Shown here piece by piece: positions 19,088 to 29,668 of a stretch of 40,674 bases of DNA (position 1 is its first letter; every line of letters begins with the position of its first letter). The notes below the pieces were generated by a model that saw only the letters and a program-made list of their open reading frames with translations, made no database searches and was not told the origin of the DNA. Made by a program: the position numbers and the translations under genes. This stretch comes from an uncultured Oscillospiraceae bacterium (GTDB lineage Bacteria; Bacillota; Clostridia; Oscillospirales; Oscillospiraceae): contig CAZGTR010000001.1 of the NCBI GenBank assembly GCA_964528715.1, forward strand, positions 1 to 40,674, read 5' to 3'.

Positions 19088-22000
19088 TTATTCCGTAATG
19101 GTAAATTCCCGGGTGGTAACGTGGGCAAAGTTGAAGTAGATCTCAACGGTGTAGTTACCAGCTTCCTTGGGCATGAAGGGGATCGTCAGCTTGCCACGGC
19201 TGCGGTACCACATATTGGTCCAGGTGCGGCTTTCGTTTGCGACGCTGACCAGATTTCCCTGTTCATCACGAATGACATAGAGGGTAACGATCTCATCATC
19301 GGAGGTGGTGTAATTATTCAGCAATCGCATGGTAAAGGAGGCGCTGACACCAGAGGCAAAGTTGGTGGTGAAATCGCTGTCCTTCACATCCCAACGGTCC
19401 CAATTTTCCTTGGAGGGGGTGATACACATTTTCAGAGAAATGGTCTCATTGTTCACGCCATAGCCGGAAAAGTCCTCAGCATTGGGGACGGCATAGCTGC
19501 ACTCTCCGCCGAAGGTGGTAGCGCCATTGGCACATTGAATGGAAATGGTGTAGTTGCTACCGGGAACGAGGGGGAAGATGGTGGCTTCCGCAGTGGCGCA
19601 CTGAATCACCTGGCTGTCCATGCCGTCGAGGCTATACAGTACCAGCCAGCCACCTTCGGGTGCAGTACAATCGTAAGTCCAGCTGAGTTTTAGCGTTCCG
19701 GCAACAGTTGTATCCATTTGAATATCCTGCAAGGTGACGGAACCGGCAGTGAGGAAAGTGCGGGCATTGACAGTCATGCCATCGGCAGTGACTTCAATGG
19801 TGTAGCTTGCGGCATTGTCCAGCCCGGTGAGGATCACAGAAGTGGTGTCGGTGGTTACGGTCTGGTCGTAGCTGTCGTTATAGCAACGCACGGACCATTT
19901 TTGAACGGTCTCGCCTTCGGGGGCAGACCATGTAATGTGCAGACCGCCATCCTTGAAGCCAAGGATCTGCAGATTTTCAGCGACGATGACATTGGTGGGT
20001 ACGAAGGTCAAGCTTGTTTCACCGGATAGATACAGGGAAGATACAGGTTCCAGGGTGAAGGTATACTCCTTGCCCACTGTCAAGCCAGAGATATTTGCAA
20101 TGTGTCCGGCGAAAGTGGTGGCCATTTCTGGCACTTCCGGATCACCGGGAACGCCATAGTGGACGACCCACTGCTGGACATCCGGGCCCTGGACGGTGAA
20201 GCTCAAGATCACGGAACCATCGTCGTTGCCAATGGAGGCATGGAAATCGGAGATGGTGGTCAGCTGAGAAGTGGTATATGTGGCGGTCGTGGTGCCGCTC
20301 AACCGATGGAAACCGGAGATACGCACCTGGATTTTATAATTCATGCCCGCACTCAAGCCGTCAAAAGTGGCGATACCATCCACGACCTCAGCACGCTGGG
20401 TGGTACCGTAGGTGTCCGTACACAGGACGGTGAGCAGAGTGTGATCTGTATCGGTTTCCACACGGATGATCAGATGATCCTCGCTGCCACTGACGGTCAA
20501 GTCGTCAATGGTCTGCAGGTAGTATCTGTTGTAGAACAGATAACCGCCCAACAGCAGGGCCAGAAGCAAAACGCTGCCGATCAAGGAAGCCAACAGGCCC
20601 TTGTGCTGCTTTTTAGCGGGGATGGCGGCGGGATCTTCCGGCGTGGCCTCGACTTGCACAGGATCTTCCGGTTCATTTTCCGTTTCAGTTGCCTCCTGGG
20701 GCTGCTGAGTATCGTCTGCTTCGGATCCCTCCGGTACCTCATCGGTTGCCTGCACTTCTTCGACGGGAGTTTCCTCTGGGACAGGTAGTGTCACCTCAAT
20801 AGGCTCGGGAGCGACGACAGGGCTGGGGGTCTCGTGGGCGATGAGGTCATCGGCCTGGGCCAGCATTTGCTCTGTTTCGCTCTGGGTGGAAGCTTCTTCC
20901 GACTCTGGTGCGTATTCTGCCTCGTTTTCGCTATCCGTTTCGGGTTCGGTATCCTCATCAGACACTTCGTCAGGTGTTTGATCCGCTTCTTCGTCGGATC
21001 CTGTTTCTTCCGTTGTTTCTACGGCCTCGGCAGCTTCCGGTTCAGAGGGGGAGAGCTCTGGTGTTTCCTCCGAGGTGCTTTCCTCGTTCACTTCGGCTTC
21101 GGGGACTTCTTCAGACGTTTCATCGTGGGAGTCCTCATGCTCGGGAGCTTGGACACTGTCCAGTGCCTCGTCCACTTGTGCGATAACATCCGCAGTGTCC
21201 AGCGGATCGGCGGTCTCATCCGGCTCTGCTTCCACTGGCTCCTCCGGTTCCTCGGGAGCGGGTGGCGGTACGATGGGCGTGTCATTGACGCTGTTGCGCT
21301 GGAGATAGTTGATCAGCGCCTGGCCCATTTGCATGGGATCCTGCCAGCGGACATCGGGGTTCTGGTCGCAGGCTTTCAAAATGATGGTTGCCAGCTCGTG
21401 GTCTGCGTATTTCGGTGCATGGAGCACATCACCGGGCTCCGGCAAAAGACCATCATTGTAGGCCATGTACAGGATCATACCCACAGCATAGGTGTCCATA
21501 GTAGTGTTCAGCGACGAGTAAGCGTCTGATATCTCAGGGGGTGTAAAGGCACTGTGATATTTCTCTGGCAGTGAGGCATAGGGCAGGGAAGCCAGACTGA
21601 TAAAGCCAAGATCACCAATACGGTATTCACCGTTATTGCAGATATACACATTGTTGGGTTGCAGGTCGGCGTAAAGATAGCCGAACCGGCGGCACACGGA
21701 CAGGGCTGCACAAAGGTCCAGACCCAAATTCACCGCAGCCAGATGGGTCATGTCGTTGCGCTCCAGCTGTGCGGCCAGTGTGGGACGGTATCCGGATAGC
21801 AGGTATACATCGTAACCGGCTTCCGGGTCCATGGGCACCAGTTGCCATTTTTCGTAGGGTACAAAGCCCTCAAAGCGGGAGAGCTTTTGCAGTAGCTCTG
21901 CTTCCTGGACTACATCATCGGCCAATTCCTTAAAGTAAGCAATGGCGCTTTCCCGGTCAGAGAAAGCACCAGCTAACATCAATGCAGCCAGCTTTTTCTG

Positions 22001-22150
22001 TTTGGCGGGGATGGAGATCACCTTTACGATATATTTTTTATCTGTTTCCAGCTCCATAGCGGGGCAGCAGCGTACACCGTCGTGCTCGCTGATGGGGTCG
22101 CCCATGACGAAGCCGTCAAGCAGGGGAGAGATCAATGCAGGTTCCGACAA
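19088..22150 (-). CDS. Membrane protein: degenerate Hanks-type Ser/Thr kinase domain, long acidic linker, TM helix, extracellular FN3-like repeats
   Basis: YIVKVI, YADLQPNN, IGDLG, TPPE, DTYAVG kinase-like motifs; E/P/T-rich linker; TM GLLASLIGSVLLLALLLGGYLFY; GLxxGxxY and W-containing FN3-like strands. Confidence 0.8.
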   Translation of the reverse strand: MSEPALISPLLDGFVMGDPISEHDGVRCCPAMELETDKKYIVKVISIPAKQKKLAALMLAGAFSDRESAIAYFKELADDVVQEAELLQKLSRFEGFVPYEKWQLVPMDPEAGYDVYLLSGYRPTLAAQLERNDMTHLAAVNLGLDLCAALSVCRRFGYLYADLQPNNVYICNNGEYRIGDLGFISLASLPYASLPEKYHSAFTPPEISDAYSSLNTTMDTYAVGMILYMAYNDGLLPEPGDVLHAPKYADHELATIILKACDQNPDVRWQDPMQMGQALINYLQRNSVNDTPIVPPPAPEEPEEPVEAEPDETADPLDTADVIAQVDEALDSVQAPEHEDSHDETSEEVPEAEVNEESTSEETPELSPSEPEAAEAVETTEETGSDEEADQTPDEVSDEDTEPETDSENEAEYAPESEEASTQSETEQMLAQADDLIAHETPSPVVAPEPIEVTLPVPEETPVEEVQATDEVPEGSEADDTQQPQEATETENEPEDPVQVEATPEDPAAIPAKKQHKGLLASLIGSVLLLALLLGGYLFYNRYYLQTIDDLTVSGSEDHLIIRVETDTDHTLLTVLCTDTYGTTQRAEVVDGIATFDGLSAGMNYKIQVRISGFHRLSGTTTATYTTSQLTTISDFHASIGNDDGSVILSFTVQGPDVQQWVVHYGVPGDPEVPEMATTFAGHIANISGLTVGKEYTFTLEPVSSLYLSGETSLTFVPTNVIVAENLQILGFKDGGLHITWSAPEGETVQKWSVRCYNDSYDQTVTTDTTSVILTGLDNAASYTIEVTADGMTVNARTFLTAGSVTLQDIQMDTTVAGTLKLSWTYDCTAPEGGWLVLYSLDGMDSQVIQCATAEATIFPLVPGSNYTISIQCANGATTFGGECSYAVPNAEDFSGYGVNNETISLKMCITPSKENWDRWDVKDSDFTTNFASGVSASFTMRLLNNYTTSDDEIVTLYVIRDEQGNLVSVANESRTWTNMWYRSRGKLTIPFMPKEAGNYTVEIYFNFAHVTTREFTITE

Positions 22151-22357: not shown

Positions 22358-22915
22358 ATGGAGGATGAACAGATCATCGCTCTGTTTCAGCAACGCTCGG
22401 AGGAGGCCATCAGCGTATTGTCCGGGAAGTATGGTGGACTTTGCATGAATGCAGCGTATTGGGTACTCAGCGACAGACTTGATGCGCAGGAGTGCGTCAA
22501 CGACGCATATCTGAAGGTATGGGAGTCTATCCCACCTCAATGCCCCCGGTCATTGCCGGCGTATTTGCTGAAGATCGTGCGAAACTTAGCGATCAATCTT
22601 CAAAACGGAAAAAATTCCCAGAAACGCAGAGGAAATTATGAGCTTTGCCTGGAAGAATTATCTGACGTTATCTCATCGCCAGAGCGGGTCGAAACACACC
22701 TGGAGACAGCGGAATTGACAATCTTGCTGAATCGATTTCTGGACGAGCTGGACATGGAAAACAGAAGACTGTTCATGGGGCGATATTGGCACATGAAGTC
22801 TTATGAAGAACTATCTGCGGAAACGGGGCTTTCACAAGGGACGATCCGTACCCGTCTTTCCCGTATCCGCAGCCGACTGAAAAAGGAACTATCCAGGGAG
22901 GAAATATTTGTATGA
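22358..22915 (+). CDS. ECF RNA polymerase sigma factor
   Basis: 185 aa; region 2 DAQECVNDAYLKVW..YLLKIVRN; region 4 HTH SYEELSAETGLSQGTIRTRLSRIR. Confidence 0.95.
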   Translation: MEDEQIIALFQQRSEEAISVLSGKYGGLCMNAAYWVLSDRLDAQECVNDAYLKVWESIPPQCPRSLPAYLLKIVRNLAINLQNGKNSQKRRGNYELCLEELSDVISSPERVETHLETAELTILLNRFLDELDMENRRLFMGRYWHMKSYEELSAETGLSQGTIRTRLSRIRSRLKKELSREEIFV

Positions 22916-23592
22916 CAGAACAGCAGATCATGGTTGCGCTAACAGATGTTAAGCAGGAGCATATCCTTGCGGGGCTTTACACGCAAAAGAGAAAATGGAA
23001 AGCAGGATGGATCCGCAATGCAGCCGTTGCGGCGGTGTTGCTTTTATTGATCAGCGTAGCGGCCATTTGGCAGGGAGTGAATCATAAACCAACAGACAAA
23101 GCAGCTCACTTCTTTGCCATCACCGCACAAGCAGCAGATGGAAGCAAAACAAATTATGAGTTGAATAAAAGCTATTTCAATTCCGGAACATTTTTTGAAA
23201 CCAATATATTTGGTGGGGATATGCCACTGTTTGAATTTGCATTGGATACCACAAACTGGACGGATGACCCACTTACCATGCGGCAGTATTATTCAAATTT
23301 CGATGTTACTGTTTCCTATGATGGACAAACAGAAGATGACGCTGATCAGCATATTGCTATTTTCCATTTGATGGACGCAGAGATTTTGACAGGCAGCGCA
23401 ACTACCGGTTACGGTATCACAGGCTGGTTTGAAGAACCGACGGATCTTGAGATCTGCGTCACGGAAAAGCAGACGGGAGCGCTGGTGGAAAAGACCGTGC
23501 TGCACATTCGCTATTTGCCTGAAAAAAGCGGCTATGAGCTGACGGTGACGGGATGTGAGACCATAAAAGCATATCAGGACCAAAATACATAA
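22912..23592 (+). CDS. Putative anti-sigma factor (short N-terminal helix, one TM, extracellular domain of unknown fold)
   Basis: ATGA overlap with the ECF gene; MTEQQIMVALTDVKQEHIL, basic patch KRKWK, TM AAVAAVLLLLISVAAIW. Confidence 0.7.
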   Translation: MTEQQIMVALTDVKQEHILAGLYTQKRKWKAGWIRNAAVAAVLLLLISVAAIWQGVNHKPTDKAAHFFAITAQAADGSKTNYELNKSYFNSGTFFETNIFGGDMPLFEFALDTTNWTDDPLTMRQYYSNFDVTVSYDGQTEDDADQHIAIFHLMDAEILTGSATTGYGITGWFEEPTDLEICVTEKQTGALVEKTVLHIRYLPEKSGYELTVTGCETIKAYQDQNT

Positions 23593-23803: not shown

Positions 23804-23832
23804 TTGCAATCAGAAAGCGGCTGTGTTATAAT
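23804..23832 (+). promoter_or_regulatory. SigA promoter
   Basis: TTGCAA-17 bp-TATAAT with extended TG. Confidence 0.8.
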
Positions 23833-23875
23833 GACAAAAAATGAGGTGCGATTCCGTGCCGGACAGGAGGTTTCT

Positions 23876-25159
23876 ATGAGCAAAATTATTTGTGATGTTT
23901 GCGGTACCGCATATCCGGAAACTGCCAACCAGTGCCCCATTTGCGGCTGCGCAAAAGCGCCTGCCGCACAGGCAACCTGTGATGATACACAGCATGAGGG
24001 CTATACATACGTGAAAGGTGGCCGCTTTTCCAAGAGTAACGTAAAACGCAACAACCGTGCAAAGGCCCAGGAACAGCGGGTAGCTGCTCCCGCTCCCAAG
24101 CAGGAGAATACCACTGCTTCCAGTTATGCTGCCCCGGAACGCCGGGAAGATCGGCGTAGACCGGAAAAGGAAGAACCGGAGGGCGTGAACAAGGGACTTG
24201 TGGCAGTGGTGATCATTTTGCTGCTGGCGATCATTATGGTGGTCGTGTACATTGGAAGAAGTGTGTTCCTTGGCGGTAATGATACCACGACCCCCAGTGA
24301 TACCTATCAGCAGACCGAAGGAATGCAGACCGGTAGCACCGAATCTTCCGTTCCCTGCACAGAGCTGAAGCTGGGAAGTGCCATGGTGGAGCTGAAGAGC
24401 GAAACGGAGAAGTATCTGCTGGAAGTACGGCGGATCCCGGAAAATACCACAGACACACTTATTTTTACTTCGGACAATTCCTCCGTTGCAACGGTGGACC
24501 AGAACGGCTTGATCCTGCCCATGGGCAACGGCGAGACTGTGATCACCGTCACCTGCGGTAATGTGTCTGCACAGTGTCTGGTCAGCTGCACCTTTGGTGA
24601 GCCGACTCCCACTGAACCTGAGACCGAGCCGCCTGTGGATATTCCTGCTGGCTTCGTATTGACTCTGAACCGGAAGGACTTCACGCTGGGCAAAGAAGGG
24701 GAGACCTGGACGCTGTATAAGGAGACCGACGGCGTGAAGGCATCTGATATCACCTGGACCACCTCTGATCCTGCGGTGGCGACGGTGGAAAACGGCGTGG
24801 TCAAGGGTGTCAATAAGGGTAATGCCACCATCACGGCGACCTTGGGCGAGCAGAGCGTGACCTGCACGGTGCGTTGCAGCTTCAATGCTTCTGAGCCGAC
24901 CGAAGCTGCGGATTACTACATCAGCTACAAGGACGTGACCTTGAAGTCCGGCGAATCCTTCAACTTGACCCTCAAGACCAAGGAAGGCGCCAATGTCCAG
25001 GGCGTGGAATGGGTGATCAGCGACGAGGGCTATGTGACCATCAGCAAAAACACGGTGAAAGCTAATGCCATCACCGAAAAGAAGGTCATCACCATCTCTG
25101 CCACTTATGAAGGCGTGACCTACACTTGTATCGTTCGGTTGGTTCCGGATGAAGCCTAA
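23876..25159 (+). CDS. Single-pass membrane protein with N-terminal zinc ribbon and extracellular Ig-like (Big_2) repeats
   Basis: CDVC..CPIC at the N-terminus, TM LVAVVIILLLAIIMVVVYI, Big_2-like repeats (FTSDNSSVATVD..G, WTTSDPAVATVENG). ATG 23876 follows AGGAGG. Confidence 0.85.
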   Translation: MSKIICDVCGTAYPETANQCPICGCAKAPAAQATCDDTQHEGYTYVKGGRFSKSNVKRNNRAKAQEQRVAAPAPKQENTTASSYAAPERREDRRRPEKEEPEGVNKGLVAVVIILLLAIIMVVVYIGRSVFLGGNDTTTPSDTYQQTEGMQTGSTESSVPCTELKLGSAMVELKSETEKYLLEVRRIPENTTDTLIFTSDNSSVATVDQNGLILPMGNGETVITVTCGNVSAQCLVSCTFGEPTPTEPETEPPVDIPAGFVLTLNRKDFTLGKEGETWTLYKETDGVKASDITWTTSDPAVATVENGVVKGVNKGNATITATLGEQSVTCTVRCSFNASEPTEAADYYISYKDVTLKSGESFNLTLKTKEGANVQGVEWVISDEGYVTISKNTVKANAITEKKVITISATYEGVTYTCIVRLVPDEA

Positions 25160-27061: not shown

Positions 27062-27089
27062 ACCGCCCGGAAAATTCCGGGCGGTTTTT
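27062..27089 (+). terminator. Intrinsic terminator after spoIIR
   Basis: ACCGCCCGGAA-AA-TTCCGGGCGGT followed by a T run. Confidence 0.88.
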
Positions 27090-27119: not shown

Positions 27120-27175
27120 GGGCGTAAGATTATGACAGCAAAATCGGTGATAATAGGTGAGAGGAGGCGGCGTAC

Positions 27176-27736
27176 ATGGACGATCGGCAGATACTGAAGC
27201 TGTTCTTCGCCAGAGCGGAAGGCGCCATTGAGGCTCTGGCGGAGAAGTTCGGCAACACATTGGAGCGCATCGCTATGAACATTCTGGAAAACCGGGAAGA
27301 TGCCCAGGAGAGTACCAACGATACATATCTGGCGATTTGGAACGCCATCCCGCCCAGAGAGCCGGAGCCCCTGGCACCCTATGTGTACCGCACAGGACGA
27401 AATATGGCCTTAAAGCACCTGACCCATGATAGGGCACAAAAACGGCGCAGTTGCTATGATGTGTCACTGGACGAACTTGCCGGGTGCCTGCCCGGTGAGG
27501 ATCTGGAGCAGATGCTGGATGCCCGTGCAGTTGGTCGGGCGATGGATGCGTTTCTGGAGACCCAGAGCCGGGAGAACCGCTATATATTTCTGCGGCGATA
27601 TTGGTACGGTGACAGCATCCGGGATATTGCGCAGGTGTTGAAAATGCGGGAAAATGTCGTGTCCGTCCGGTTGAACCGCCTCCGGGGAAAACTGAAAGAT
27701 CATTTGATCAGGGAGGGATTTTACTATGGATCGTGA
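27176..27736 (+). CDS. ECF RNA polymerase sigma factor (paralogue of 22358..22915)
   Basis: DAQESTNDTYLAIWNAIPP..YVYRTGRN; region 4 SIRDIAQVLKMRENVVSVRLNRLR. Confidence 0.95.
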   Translation: MDDRQILKLFFARAEGAIEALAEKFGNTLERIAMNILENREDAQESTNDTYLAIWNAIPPREPEPLAPYVYRTGRNMALKHLTHDRAQKRRSCYDVSLDELAGCLPGEDLEQMLDARAVGRAMDAFLETQSRENRYIFLRRYWYGDSIRDIAQVLKMRENVVSVRLNRLRGKLKDHLIREGFYYGS

Positions 27737-29141
27737 ACAGACTTTGCAGGCATTGGAGGAGATCTCCGACCAGCATATTGAAGAAGCGGCAAAACGCCCC
27801 AAAAAGAGACAGAGGATCATTTTCAGAAGTGCGGTGGCGGCAGTTTTGGCGGCGGCGGTGGGACTTGGCGTATTTTTGACCCCCGGAAAGGTCAATGCCA
27901 AGGCAGTGGCGTTGCCGGGGGAGCCACGGCTCACTGTGTATAAGAGCCATGACGAGTTCAAGGATGATGACGAATGGAAGGCATACACGGAATCCTACAA
28001 GGCAGAGCAGAATAAACGCAGTGCTCTGGCAAAGGCGGCGAAGAATGATCTGTTGCCCTTTTTCACCAACGCCAACCGGGAATTTTTGACCGGCGACGAT
28101 GGAGAAAACAAACTCTGGTCGCCCATCAATGCCTACATCGGTCTTGCCATGCTCACGGAGCTGACGGCAGGGGAGAGCAAGCAGCAGCTCATGAATCTGC
28201 TGGGGGCGCAGAGCAGCAAGGTGTTGCGCCAGCAGGTGAGCGCCGTGTGGGAGACCATCTATAACGACAGCGACAACGAGCGCAGTACCCTTGCCAATTC
28301 CTTGTGGATGCAGGAGGGGGGAGAATATGAGCAGAACACCATGGATGCGCTTGCCTACTATTACTACGCCTGCGTCTACCAGGGGAATTTGGGAAGCCAG
28401 AAGATCAACGAGGCCATTGGCACCTGGCTGGATAACAACACCGCTGGCCTGCTGAAAAAGTACACCGGTCAGATCGAACTGGATCCCAATACGGTGCTGG
28501 CTCTGTATTCTACCATCAACTTCCAGTCCAAGTGGCAGGATGAATTTTCCGCCAAGGCAAACACCGATGGAACATTCCACGGCAGCAAAGGCGACCAGAC
28601 CGTTACCTATATGAACAAAAAAGAAGCCCAGATGGATTATTACTGGGATGAGGATTTCGCCGCAATTGCCCTTCGTTTGAAAAACGGCAGCACCATGTGG
28701 TTCATTTTGCCGGATGAGGATAAGACGACCGCCGATGTGCTGTCCAGCGGAAGATATCAGGAGCTGGTCAGCGGCGGGGAATGGGAAAATAAAAAGTATA
28801 TGAAGGTCAATTTGTCCGTGCCGAAATTTGATGTTTCCGGGCAGATCAAACTGGACGACGGATTGAAAAATTTGGGCGTGACGGACATCTTTGATCCGGA
28901 TCAGGCTGATTTTTCTGCCATCGTATCGGATGATCCGTTGTATGCGCAGAGAATCAATCAGGCTGTCCGGGTGGAGATAGACGAGGAGGGCGTGAAGGCG
29001 GCGGCATACATTGAAATACCCATGAATGGTGCGGCAGCGCCTCCGGAGGAGATCGTGGACTTCGTGCTGGACAGACCCTTCCTGTTCGTCATTTCCAACA
29101 GCGGCCTGCCCATGTTTGCAGGTGTGGTCAACGAGCCGTAA
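27726..29141 (+). CDS. Serpin family protein with N-terminal anti-sigma-like segment and TM anchor
   Basis: Serpin motifs NKLWSPIN, ANSLW, WLDNNTAG, STINFQSKWQDEF, MWFILPD, VPKFDV, LKNLGVTDIF, hinge DEEGVKAAA, signature FVLDRPFLFVI..PMFAGVVNEP. Confidence 0.93.
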   Translation: MDREQTLQALEEISDQHIEEAAKRPKKRQRIIFRSAVAAVLAAAVGLGVFLTPGKVNAKAVALPGEPRLTVYKSHDEFKDDDEWKAYTESYKAEQNKRSALAKAAKNDLLPFFTNANREFLTGDDGENKLWSPINAYIGLAMLTELTAGESKQQLMNLLGAQSSKVLRQQVSAVWETIYNDSDNERSTLANSLWMQEGGEYEQNTMDALAYYYYACVYQGNLGSQKINEAIGTWLDNNTAGLLKKYTGQIELDPNTVLALYSTINFQSKWQDEFSAKANTDGTFHGSKGDQTVTYMNKKEAQMDYYWDEDFAAIALRLKNGSTMWFILPDEDKTTADVLSSGRYQELVSGGEWENKKYMKVNLSVPKFDVSGQIKLDDGLKNLGVTDIFDPDQADFSAIVSDDPLYAQRINQAVRVEIDEEGVKAAAYIEIPMNGAAAPPEEIVDFVLDRPFLFVISNSGLPMFAGVVNEP

Positions 29142-29232: not shown

Positions 29233-29595
29233 ATGAAAGAGAAATTCAAGAAGGTGTTGCAGTTTGTGACAAACCCAAGGCTTTTGCTTTGCTTTGCCAT
29301 CGGCTGGATGATCACCAATGGCTGGTCGTATATCCTCTTTGGGCTGGGCACTTATTTCGGAATCACATGGATGACTGCCGTGGGCGGGGCGTATCTGGCA
29401 TTTCTCTGGCTACCCATTTCCCCGGAGAAGATCGTCACCTGCGCCATTGCGCTTGCACTTCTGCGCTGGCTTTTTCCCAATGATACCAAGACACTGGCGG
29501 TGCTCAAGGAGTTGCACGCCAGAGCCAGAGGCTTCGTGCAGAAAAAGAAAGAGCAACACGAAGAAAAGAAAGAACATGAGATCAAAGAGCGATAA
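29233..29595 (+). CDS. Hypothetical membrane protein (2-3 TM, charged tail)
   Basis: Hydrophobic ORF in an otherwise empty interval; candidate promoter TTGATT-17 bp-TAAGAT upstream and a terminator downstream. Confidence 0.75.
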   Translation: MKEKFKKVLQFVTNPRLLLCFAIGWMITNGWSYILFGLGTYFGITWMTAVGGAYLAFLWLPISPEKIVTCAIALALLRWLFPNDTKTLAVLKELHARARGFVQKKKEQHEEKKEHEIKER

Positions 29596-29634
29596 GAAGT
29601 ACCGACTTTGGACAGGTGGTAATAAAACAGTTTG

Positions 29635-29668
29635 TGGAGCGTATCGTTATCGATACGCTCCGCTTTTT
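29635..29668 (+). terminator. Intrinsic terminator
   Basis: GGAGCGTATCG-TTAT-CGATACGCTCC-GC-TTTTT. Confidence 0.8.

What the first reader, a model, noticed from the sequence alone, without database searches (positions are those of the whole stretch)
27176..29141. ECF sigma factor coupled to an anti-sigma-like membrane serpin: candidate protease-sensing signalling system
Seen: the serpin gene overlaps the ECF sigma gene by 11 bp, in the slot normally held by the anti-sigma. Its N-terminus (MDREQTLQALEEISDQHIEEA, basic KRPKKRQR, TM AVAAVLAAAVGLGVFL) is longer than a simple signal peptide. It aligns by eye with the N-terminus of the partner of the other ECF in this window (MTEQQIMVALTDVKQEHILAG, KRKWK, TM). 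After the TM come AxA-like sites (VNA, AKA), a helical linker and a complete serpin domain. Established: inhibitory serpins undergo a large irreversible rearrangement on reactive-loop cleavage; the anti-sigma RsiV both inhibits lysozyme and senses it, triggering signal-peptidase cleavage and SigV release. Inference: this protein may trap an extracellular protease and convert loop insertion into regulated proteolysis and sigma release. I do not know of a described serpin acting as an anti-sigma sensor.
Basis: partly seen in the sequence, partly recalled or inferred. Interest (0 to 1): 0.9.

Follow-up and report, generated by a model that had tools for sequence, protein, structure and literature searches.

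The report
Serpin-tipped anti-sigma factor switch
A gut-type Clostridia bacterium pairs a stress sigma factor with a membrane protein whose inner tail is predicted to hold that sigma and whose outer part is a complete serpin, which would likely let the cell detect protease attack and answer by making more of the inhibitor.

Summary
Observation confirmed. ECF sigma (27176-27736) overlaps by 11 bp a 471-aa gene: 25-residue cytoplasmic tail, one TM helix, full serpin. The tail is very likely an anti-sigma domain. Among relatives, 75 of 77 with enough upstream DNA have the ECF directly upstream; the two without it carry a lipoprotein signal instead. A profile built only from non-serpin ECF partners scores 81 of 81 coupled serpins and 0 of 136 others. 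The tail's divergence tracks the sigma (partial rho 0.59), not its own serpin (0.06). A predicted complex scored 0.81 against a best control of 0.02. An ECF-type promoter precedes the pair, and no other target was found. Serpins are fused to partners of four sigma families, and split ECF/anti-sigma/lipoprotein-serpin operons exist. New lead: the signal-peptidase-like site (residues 56-62) lies where tengpin's native-state latch lies, which loop insertion displaces in tengpin. Sensing, inhibition and processing are untested; the hinge is non-canonical (P14 Val, P9 Tyr). Not found in four literature searches. This scan noted the same pairing before on other DNA (38 notes, at least 35 genomes). 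New variant of a known kind; interest 0.78.

The parts
27062..27085 (+). Terminator-like hairpin ending the upstream spoIIR-like gene; separates the pair from upstream transcription
   Evidence: consensus match only; Spore_II_R upstream
27123..27155 (+). Predicted ECF-dependent promoter: -35 cGTAAGAT (27123-27130), 14-nt spacer, -10 CGGTGATAATA (27145-27155)
   Evidence: Motif class in 27 of 46 non-redundant pairs (28 by regex, L083 a false match). With the window left out of training it is the top site in the own genome, 19.0 bits, but the reversed-genome control reaches 18.2: position and conservation carry the claim, not the score
27176..27736 (+). ECF sigma factor, 186 aa (sigma2 + sigma4); RBS AGGAGG at 27162-27167
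27726..29141 (+). Anti-sigma::serpin gene, 471 aa, translationally coupled (11-bp overlap, RBS-like 27710-27717)
27726..27800 (+). Cytoplasmic anti-sigma tail, residues 1-25, two short helices; predicted to contact sigma4 helices 114-144, the linker and sigma2 65-79
27816..27881 (+). Single Ala-rich transmembrane helix (about residues 31-52) after a basic stretch
   Evidence: sequence; helix in model; A38/A39 invariant in 46 relatives
27891..27911 (+). Residues 56-62: overlapping VxA/AxA signal-peptidase-like motif; predicted beta-strand 59-62 at the position of tengpin's N-terminal latch
   Evidence: tengpin paper
28020..29138 (+). Serpin domain (about residues 99-471)
   Evidence: Pfam; PDB sequence; fold
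28983..29009 (+). Hinge P17-P9 (residues 420-428): conserved E/G and small P12-P10, but Val at P14 and Tyr at P9
   Evidence: register from the alignment to conserpin with the antitrypsin loop
29010..29045 (+). Reactive centre loop P8-P4'; predicted P1-P1' Ala436-Ala437 (29031-29036), Ala/Gly-rich; disordered in the model

Best explanation
The 471-aa protein is likely a single-pass anti-sigma factor whose cytoplasmic tail is predicted to hold the co-encoded ECF sigma and whose outer serpin likely acts both as protease trap and as sensor. Shown by calls: the gene pair, its conservation, the shared partner motif, co-divergence of tail and sigma, the promoter-like motif. Predicted: tail-sigma binding; residues 56-62 lying as a latch strand on the serpin body. 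Inferred: in the native state the latch hides the VxA/AxA site 10-15 residues outside the membrane; an elastase- or subtilisin-like protease cuts the Ala/Gly-rich loop; loop insertion moves strand 1A into the latch's place, as in tengpin; signal peptidase cuts the freed site; an M50 protease cuts the Ala-rich TM; the sigma is released and transcribes its own two-gene operon, replacing the spent inhibitor. Odds: anti-sigma about 0.9; switched on by protease attack by some route about 0.65; by this latch route about 0.45.
For: Context: 75 of 77 loci with enough upstream DNA, among 80 fetched, have an ECF directly upstream (74 by script plus L100, which has a GTG start; 3 end at contig edges). 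The two exceptions (L046, L066; 54-55% identical) have a lipoprotein signal in place of the tail; L151 and L155 repeat this. Class-wide draw of 301 genomes: 5 of 130 full-length serpins with at least 700 bp upstream follow an ECF directly, all 5 with the TM starting at residue 34-65. Motif: a profile from 37 distinct non-serpin ECF partners gives at least 10 bits to 81 of 81 coupled serpins and 0 of 136 uncoupled ones; the window's tail is the top hit of 4827 N-termini of the own genome. Co-divergence in 46 pairs: tail versus sigma 0.59 given the core, tail versus core 0.06 given the sigma; linker -0.005 and 0.76; fifteen 24-residue core windows at most 0.26. Complex: score 0.81, best of 3 controls 0.02; the mark was reached by 116 of 157 solved and 2 of 215 mismatched pairs (counts hold only roughly with my own alignments); runs share at least 92% of contacts, partner pLDDT at least 76. 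Promoter: strict pattern once per genome in 4 of 5 genomes, each at the sigma gene; no conserved neighbour gene. Recurrence: serpins fused to partners of four sigma families that are only distantly related (20-37% identity over partial alignments where detected), in three separate serpin groups, and split operons in L027, L028, L029, L173, L197, L215. Latch: model aligns to native tengpin 2pee_A from model 56 / chain 36 (Z 38.8, rmsd 2.2, 354 aligned); PMC1905895 shows residues 40-42 hold the native state and that s1A takes the tail's place after the S-to-R change. Strict Ala at both 58 and 60 in 34 of 46 fused proteins (32 of 38 with a short linker); read by eye, in 0 of 9 unfused kin. Signal peptidase I and M50 families are present in the own genome.
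Against: No experiment on binding, inhibition, processing or induction. The hinge departs from the inhibitory consensus ExGTEAAAA (PMC8233489): P14 Val 44 of 46, P9 Tyr/Phe 46 of 46, P10 Thr 8 of 46, P5 Pro 25 of 46; strand-3A Asn/Gly positions are also changed. The same hinge is in unfused lipoprotein kin, so it is no adaptation to sensing. An Ala before the latch is common in ordinary lipoprotein serpins (18 of 28 rows, some duplicated), so part of the motif is structural. Five long-linker members (L006-L009, L023) and fused L146/L147 lack AxA, so the latch route cannot be universal. The model matches loop-inserted serpins best (1att_A Z 42.2, rmsd 3.0, 371 aligned; latent tengpin 2pef Z 40.6) while strand 59-62 stays ordered, and the range gives only the first aligned pair; 2pef lacks the tail by construction. 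The same tail is joined to many unrelated outer domains (71 of 79 sigma-centred loci were not scored as serpin), so the slot does not prove sensing. ECF/anti-sigma complexes are solved, so the complex pass may partly reflect likeness. Related genomes are not independent samples.
Confidence: 0.45

Rival explanations
1. Protease-triggered but without conformational coupling: the attacking protease clips the exposed linker or degrades the cleaved or complexed ectodomain, and the truncated stub becomes a site-2 substrate.
For: Long Pro/Thr-rich linkers without AxA in L006-L009 and L023; no AxA in fused L146/L147; linker 64-108 is the most variable region.
Against: Ala58/Ala60 and Pro53 are kept in 32 of 38 short-linker members; hinge and distal loop are the most conserved regions (entropy 0.7 and 0.58 against 1.54 for the core).
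Confidence: 0.2
2. True anti-sigma, but the serpin is cargo: a split operon (ECF, anti-sigma, lipoprotein serpin) collapsed into a fusion; the sigma is released by envelope stress or by slow constitutive signal-peptidase shedding, and the serpin is only the output.
For: Split and fused forms occur with the same sigma families (L197/L215 versus L024/L025; L027-L029, L173 versus the window's family); lipoprotein forms without ECF nest inside the fused clade; canonical AxA near a TM is often cut constitutively (RsiP S84A passage, PMC8844934).
Against: Most fused proteins have no other outer domain that could sense; constitutive cutting would make a co-diverging anti-sigma tail nearly pointless; the fusion is kept across Oscillospiraceae, Acutalibacteraceae and Lachnospiraceae records.
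Confidence: 0.2
3. Non-inhibitory serpin used as a ligand-binding receptor (as hormone-binding globulins use the fold); the signal is a small molecule or glycan, not a protease.
For: Non-canonical P14/P9 and strand-3A positions; a loop no more variable than the core, unlike an arms-race bait.
Against: Breach residues (E420, G422, W270, K367, P366) and small P12-P11 are kept; loop length matches antitrypsin's up to the PPE motif.
Confidence: 0.1
4. A secreted or anchored serpin with a long signal peptide, merely co-transcribed with the sigma; the tail does not bind it.
For: N-region, hydrophobic stretch and AxA together resemble a signal peptide.
Against: Tail present only with an ECF upstream, tracks the sigma's divergence, and passes the controlled complex prediction.
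Confidence: 0.05

Closest known systems
SigV-RsiV (Bacillus subtilis; PMC6066255, abstract and outline seen; passages in PMC8844934 and the PMC7826278 supplement)
   Same: ECF plus single-pass anti-sigma; outer domain binds the threatening enzyme; signal-peptidase site near the TM protected until ligand binds; site-2 cut follows.
   Different: RsiV uses DUF4179 amphipathic helices and binds lysozyme; here Pfam finds only Serpin, the proposed guard is a beta-strand latch, and the proposed signal is proteolysis of a bait loop.
SigP-RsiP-PbpP (Bacillus thuringiensis; PMC8844934, passages)
   Same: Site-1 cut by a signal peptidase near the TM; a separate sensor protein, which the split ECF/anti-sigma/lipoprotein-serpin operons resemble.
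   Different: Senses beta-lactams through a PBP and a dedicated peptidase; sensor not fused.
SigI-RsgI sets of cellulolytic clostridia (PMC3413522, PMC12484212, passages)
   Same: One anti-sigma module joined to many different outer domains.
   Different: Different sigma and anti-sigma families; outer domains bind carbohydrates; the serpins named there are cellulosomal inhibitors, not sensors.
Tengpin (PDB 2PEE/2PEF; PMC1905895, main text read)
   Same: Best PDB sequence match (E 7e-35); N-terminal strand caps the strand 1A / helix E patch.
   Different: No sigma link reported in that paper; canonical Thr at P14; the window's protein has about 25 more residues between latch and helix A.
Siropins of Eubacterium siraeum (PMC5127057, passages)
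   Same: Serpins of gut Clostridia that inhibit host proteases.
   Different: Described as one intracellular and one secreted protein; the passages seen mention no TM tail or sigma factor.

Membership tests
ECF sigma factor | Sigma2 and sigma4 only, under about 200 aa | tested here: met
Serpin superfamily | Complete serpin fold with exposed loop | tested here: met
   Pfam E 1e-64; Z 42.2, rmsd 3.0, 371 aligned to 1att_A
Inhibitory serpin | Hinge ExGTEAAAA (P17-P9) | tested here: inconclusive
   E, G and small P12-P11 kept; P14 Val 44 of 46, P9 Tyr/Phe 46 of 46. That some inhibitory serpins have Val at P14 is recalled, not checked
Inhibitory serpin | Forms a covalent complex with a protease | not testable with these tools
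   needs an assay
Single-pass anti-sigma factor | Encoded directly after its ECF, one TM, cytoplasmic N-terminus | tested here: met
Single-pass anti-sigma factor | N-terminus binds and inhibits the sigma | tested here: inconclusive
   Predicted only: score 0.81, best control 0.02; co-divergence; inhibition untested
Single-pass anti-sigma factor | Destroyed by signal-dependent site-1 and site-2 proteolysis | not testable with these tools
   Motif and host proteases present
RsiV family (ECF30 partners) | DUF4179 / DUF3298 / DUF4163 domains | tested here: not met
   Only Serpin at E up to 0.1
Class I anti-sigma domain (ASDI) | Three-helix bundle plus helix 4 (PMC7406223, passages) | tested here: not met
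   About 30 residues and two helices before the TM (pLDDT near 55 there); no Pfam family

The most novel reading that the evidence does not exclude
Gut Clostridia have wired the serpin mousetrap into gene control: loop insertion ejects an N-terminal latch that carries the site-1 cut, so each protease caught frees a sigma factor that makes more traps. The fusion arose repeatedly, with at least four sigma families, and the split operons may be the same circuit with a separate lipoprotein sensor.
Probability: 0.4. Interest if true: 0.92.

Novelty: new variant of a known kind. Interest (0 to 1): 0.78.

Why it matters
I found no description of a serpin as a transmembrane signalling domain (four searches). 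If true, commensal gut Clostridia carry a dedicated detector of extracellular protease activity, which bears on how they cope with host or microbial proteases. It would also give a two-gene, apparently self-contained protease reporter whose specificity sits in a short loop. Even without sensing, the work defines a short unnamed anti-sigma tail shared by a very large clostridial ECF family, with a controlled model of how it binds the sigma.

Tried and rejected
Pairwise match to the window's other ECF partner: not significant. Wider regulon: PWM hits in the 63%-complete own genome were no more than in the reversed control (24 versus 27 at 12 bits or more). A looser pattern gave 24 hits against 7 controls in 5 genomes; of 16 of these sites fetched (plus one own-genome site), 2 lay before other ECF genes and the rest showed no common theme by reading of the ORFs. 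No conserved downstream gene among 46 pairs, so 29233-29595 is left out of the system. ECF group name: not assigned; the PMC7826278 supplement has no 'serpin', but the stored file is cut, so an unseen part may bear on novelty. No named family for the tail in Pfam or NCBIfam; Atlas hits were under 0.9, leads only. No RNA holder listed. PDB has no close sigma (best SigE, E 1e-4). Literature searches for prior description, listings only: serpin + anti-sigma (18 papers, 17 listed), serpin + ECF + sigma factor + Clostridi, anti-sigma + protease inhibitor terms (15 listed), serpin + regulated intramembrane proteolysis; none describes this by title or abstract start, and two cellulosome papers checked by passage do not either. 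The library lacks most subscription journals.

Full report
Observation. The window holds an ECF sigma gene at 27176-27736 and a 471-aa gene at 27726-29141, overlapping by 11 bp. Pfam and NCBIfam place the first as an ECF sigma and find a serpin over residues 121-471 of the second. The best PDB sequence match is tengpin, and the predicted model (mean pLDDT 81.9) superposes on many serpins.

Conserved pairing. Of these, 75 have an ECF directly upstream (74 by script, L100 by its GTG start), 3 end at a contig edge, and 2 lack the ECF. Those two, L046 and L066, are as similar as the rest (54-55%) but begin with a lipoprotein signal peptide in place of the tail. In a class-wide draw of 301 genomes I fetched 130 regions for the 150 listed matches, leaving out most fragments and 9 unlisted matches. 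They gave 141 serpin ORFs, a few duplicated. Of 130 full-length ones with at least 700 bp upstream, 5 follow an ECF directly and all 5 have a long N-terminus before the TM; the others with a credible start have a signal peptide or lipobox in the first 20 residues. Two more close relatives without an ECF, L151 and L155, are lipoproteins and nest inside the fused clade.

The tail is the partner motif of this sigma family. From the sigma side, 79 of 80 metagenome loci had a following gene; nearly all begin with the same two-helix motif, basic stretch and TM, followed by very different outer parts. Eight scored as serpins, seven of them next to the eight closest sigmas. A profile trained on 37 distinct non-serpin partners scored at least 10 bits on 81 of 81 ECF-coupled serpins and on 0 of 136 uncoupled class serpins, and ranked the window's tail first among 4827 N-termini of its genome. 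It also matched 119 of 119 close homologues. Three of the five class-level fused proteins did not match; they belong to other sigma families.

The tail follows the sigma, not its own serpin. Over 46 non-redundant pairs the partial rank correlation of tail distance with sigma distance was 0.59 given the serpin core, and with the core 0.06 given the sigma. The linker gave -0.005 and 0.76, and fifteen equal-sized core windows never exceeded 0.26 with the sigma. The signal was stronger for sigma4 (0.66) than sigma2 (0.48). Relatedness inflates such figures; the window controls share that bias. The predicted complex of the sigma with residues 1-36 scored 0.81 against a best control of 0.02. That mark was reached by 116 of 157 solved and 2 of 215 mismatched pairs in calibration, which holds only roughly with my alignments; runs agreed in at least 92% of contacts with partner pLDDT at least 76. 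The tightest contacts are on sigma residues 119-143. This supports binding and does not show it, and likeness to solved ECF complexes may contribute.

Output. A -35/-10 motif sits just before the sigma's ribosome site in 27 of 46 pairs and changes with the sigma subtype in most others. In five genomes the strict pattern occurred once in four, each time at the sigma gene. Looser scans gave no coherent regulon, and no neighbouring gene is conserved. I infer autoregulation of a two-gene operon, so the serpin would be the product of induction. Incomplete genomes and degenerate promoters limit this.

Recurrence. Serpins are joined to partners of four sigma families: the window's (with L146/L147), L148, L153/L157 and L024/L025. 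A FastTree of 192 cores puts them in three separate groups (no constrained test). Split operons of ECF, small partner and lipoprotein serpin occur with two of these families (L027-L029, L173; L197, L215), 3 of 89 class serpins with at least 2.5 kb upstream. The split partners L197/L215 and the fused L024/L025 share sigma family (53-59% identity) and tail type, which points to fusion from split operons.

How the serpin could signal. Residues 59-62 are a predicted strand, and the model aligns to native tengpin from model residue 56 and chain residue 36 (Z 38.8, rmsd 2.2, 354 aligned). In that register Val61 matches tengpin Leu41; position 61 is Val, Ile or Leu in 46 of 46. PMC1905895 (main text read) shows that tengpin residues 40-42 cap a hydrophobic patch, hold the native state, and that strand 1A takes the tail's position after the S-to-R change. 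In the window's clade the same residues carry Pro53, Ala58 and Ala60 (39, 39 and 35 of 46), 10-15 residues from the TM in most. AxA in the 18 residues after the TM occurs in 36 of 46 fused serpins against 11 of 33 non-serpin partners. This parallels RsiV, whose signal-peptidase site is shielded until lysozyme binds (PMC6066255, abstract). By register with the antitrypsin loop, P1-P1' is Ala436-Ala437, which suggests elastase- or subtilisin-like attackers (inference). Signal peptidase I and M50 genes are in the genome.

Against it. The hinge is not the consensus given in PMC8233489: Val at P14, an aromatic at P9, Thr at P10 in 8 of 46, Pro at P5 in 25 of 46; among 121 free class serpins P14 was Thr or Ser in 93. 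The same hinge is in unfused kin. An Ala before the latch is common in plain lipoprotein serpins. Seven fused proteins clearly lack AxA there. The model resembles loop-inserted serpins slightly more than native ones while keeping the strand ordered. A canonical AxA may simply be cut all the time (PMC8844934, passages).

Comparison and novelty. It works like SigV-RsiV but is not an RsiV (no DUF4179) and not a four-helix class I anti-sigma domain. Four literature searches (listings) and the stored, cut supplement of the ECF reclassification showed no serpin-bearing anti-sigma. The scan's own notes hold 38 similar findings in at least 35 genomes (8 shown); they agree, came after my reading was set, and are not independent support.

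Verdict. Real, conserved and very likely an anti-sigma::serpin fusion (about 0.9). Protease sensing is likely but unproven (about 0.65), the latch route about 0.45. New variant of a known kind; interest 0.78.

Noticed in passing
window 22358-23592: Second ECF of the same family (35% identical) with a 226-aa single-TM partner of no Pfam family; a similar partner follows another ECF on contig C46.
   Followed up: partly
window 29625-29667: Short palindromic element (terminator-like hairpin 29634-29663) with 80-200-fold summed contig depth and many loose ends in public runs: a dispersed repeat.
   Followed up: no
window 19088-22150 (-): 1020-aa protein with a weak protein-kinase match and fibronectin type III domains, divergent from the second ECF.
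   Followed up: no
window 23804-25159: Zinc-ribbon, TM and Ig-like (Big_2) surface protein just after the second ECF pair.
   Followed up: no
L027, L028, L029, L173, L197, L215 (L165, L174 one gene further): Split operons: ECF, small single-TM partner, lipoprotein serpin.
   Followed up: partly
L024, L025, L148, L153, L157: Serpins fused to three other kinds of N-terminal tail next to three other sigma families.
   Followed up: partly
L007:770-2770: Fused member with about 200 extra residues between TM and serpin, no Pfam match.
   Followed up: partly
L108:232-1230; L054 downstream; L089 minus strand: A second serpin of the same clade just upstream of the ECF in L108; another ECF right after the serpin in L054; a lipoprotein serpin nearby on the other strand in L089.
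   Followed up: no
L094: The pair lies on a 2.5-kb contig of a record titled Candidatus Cryptobacteroides, unlike all other titles; mis-binning or transfer.
   Followed up: no
L162, L184, L190, L205, L218: Clostridia serpins of 870-950 aa with long uncharacterised N-terminal regions.
   Followed up: no
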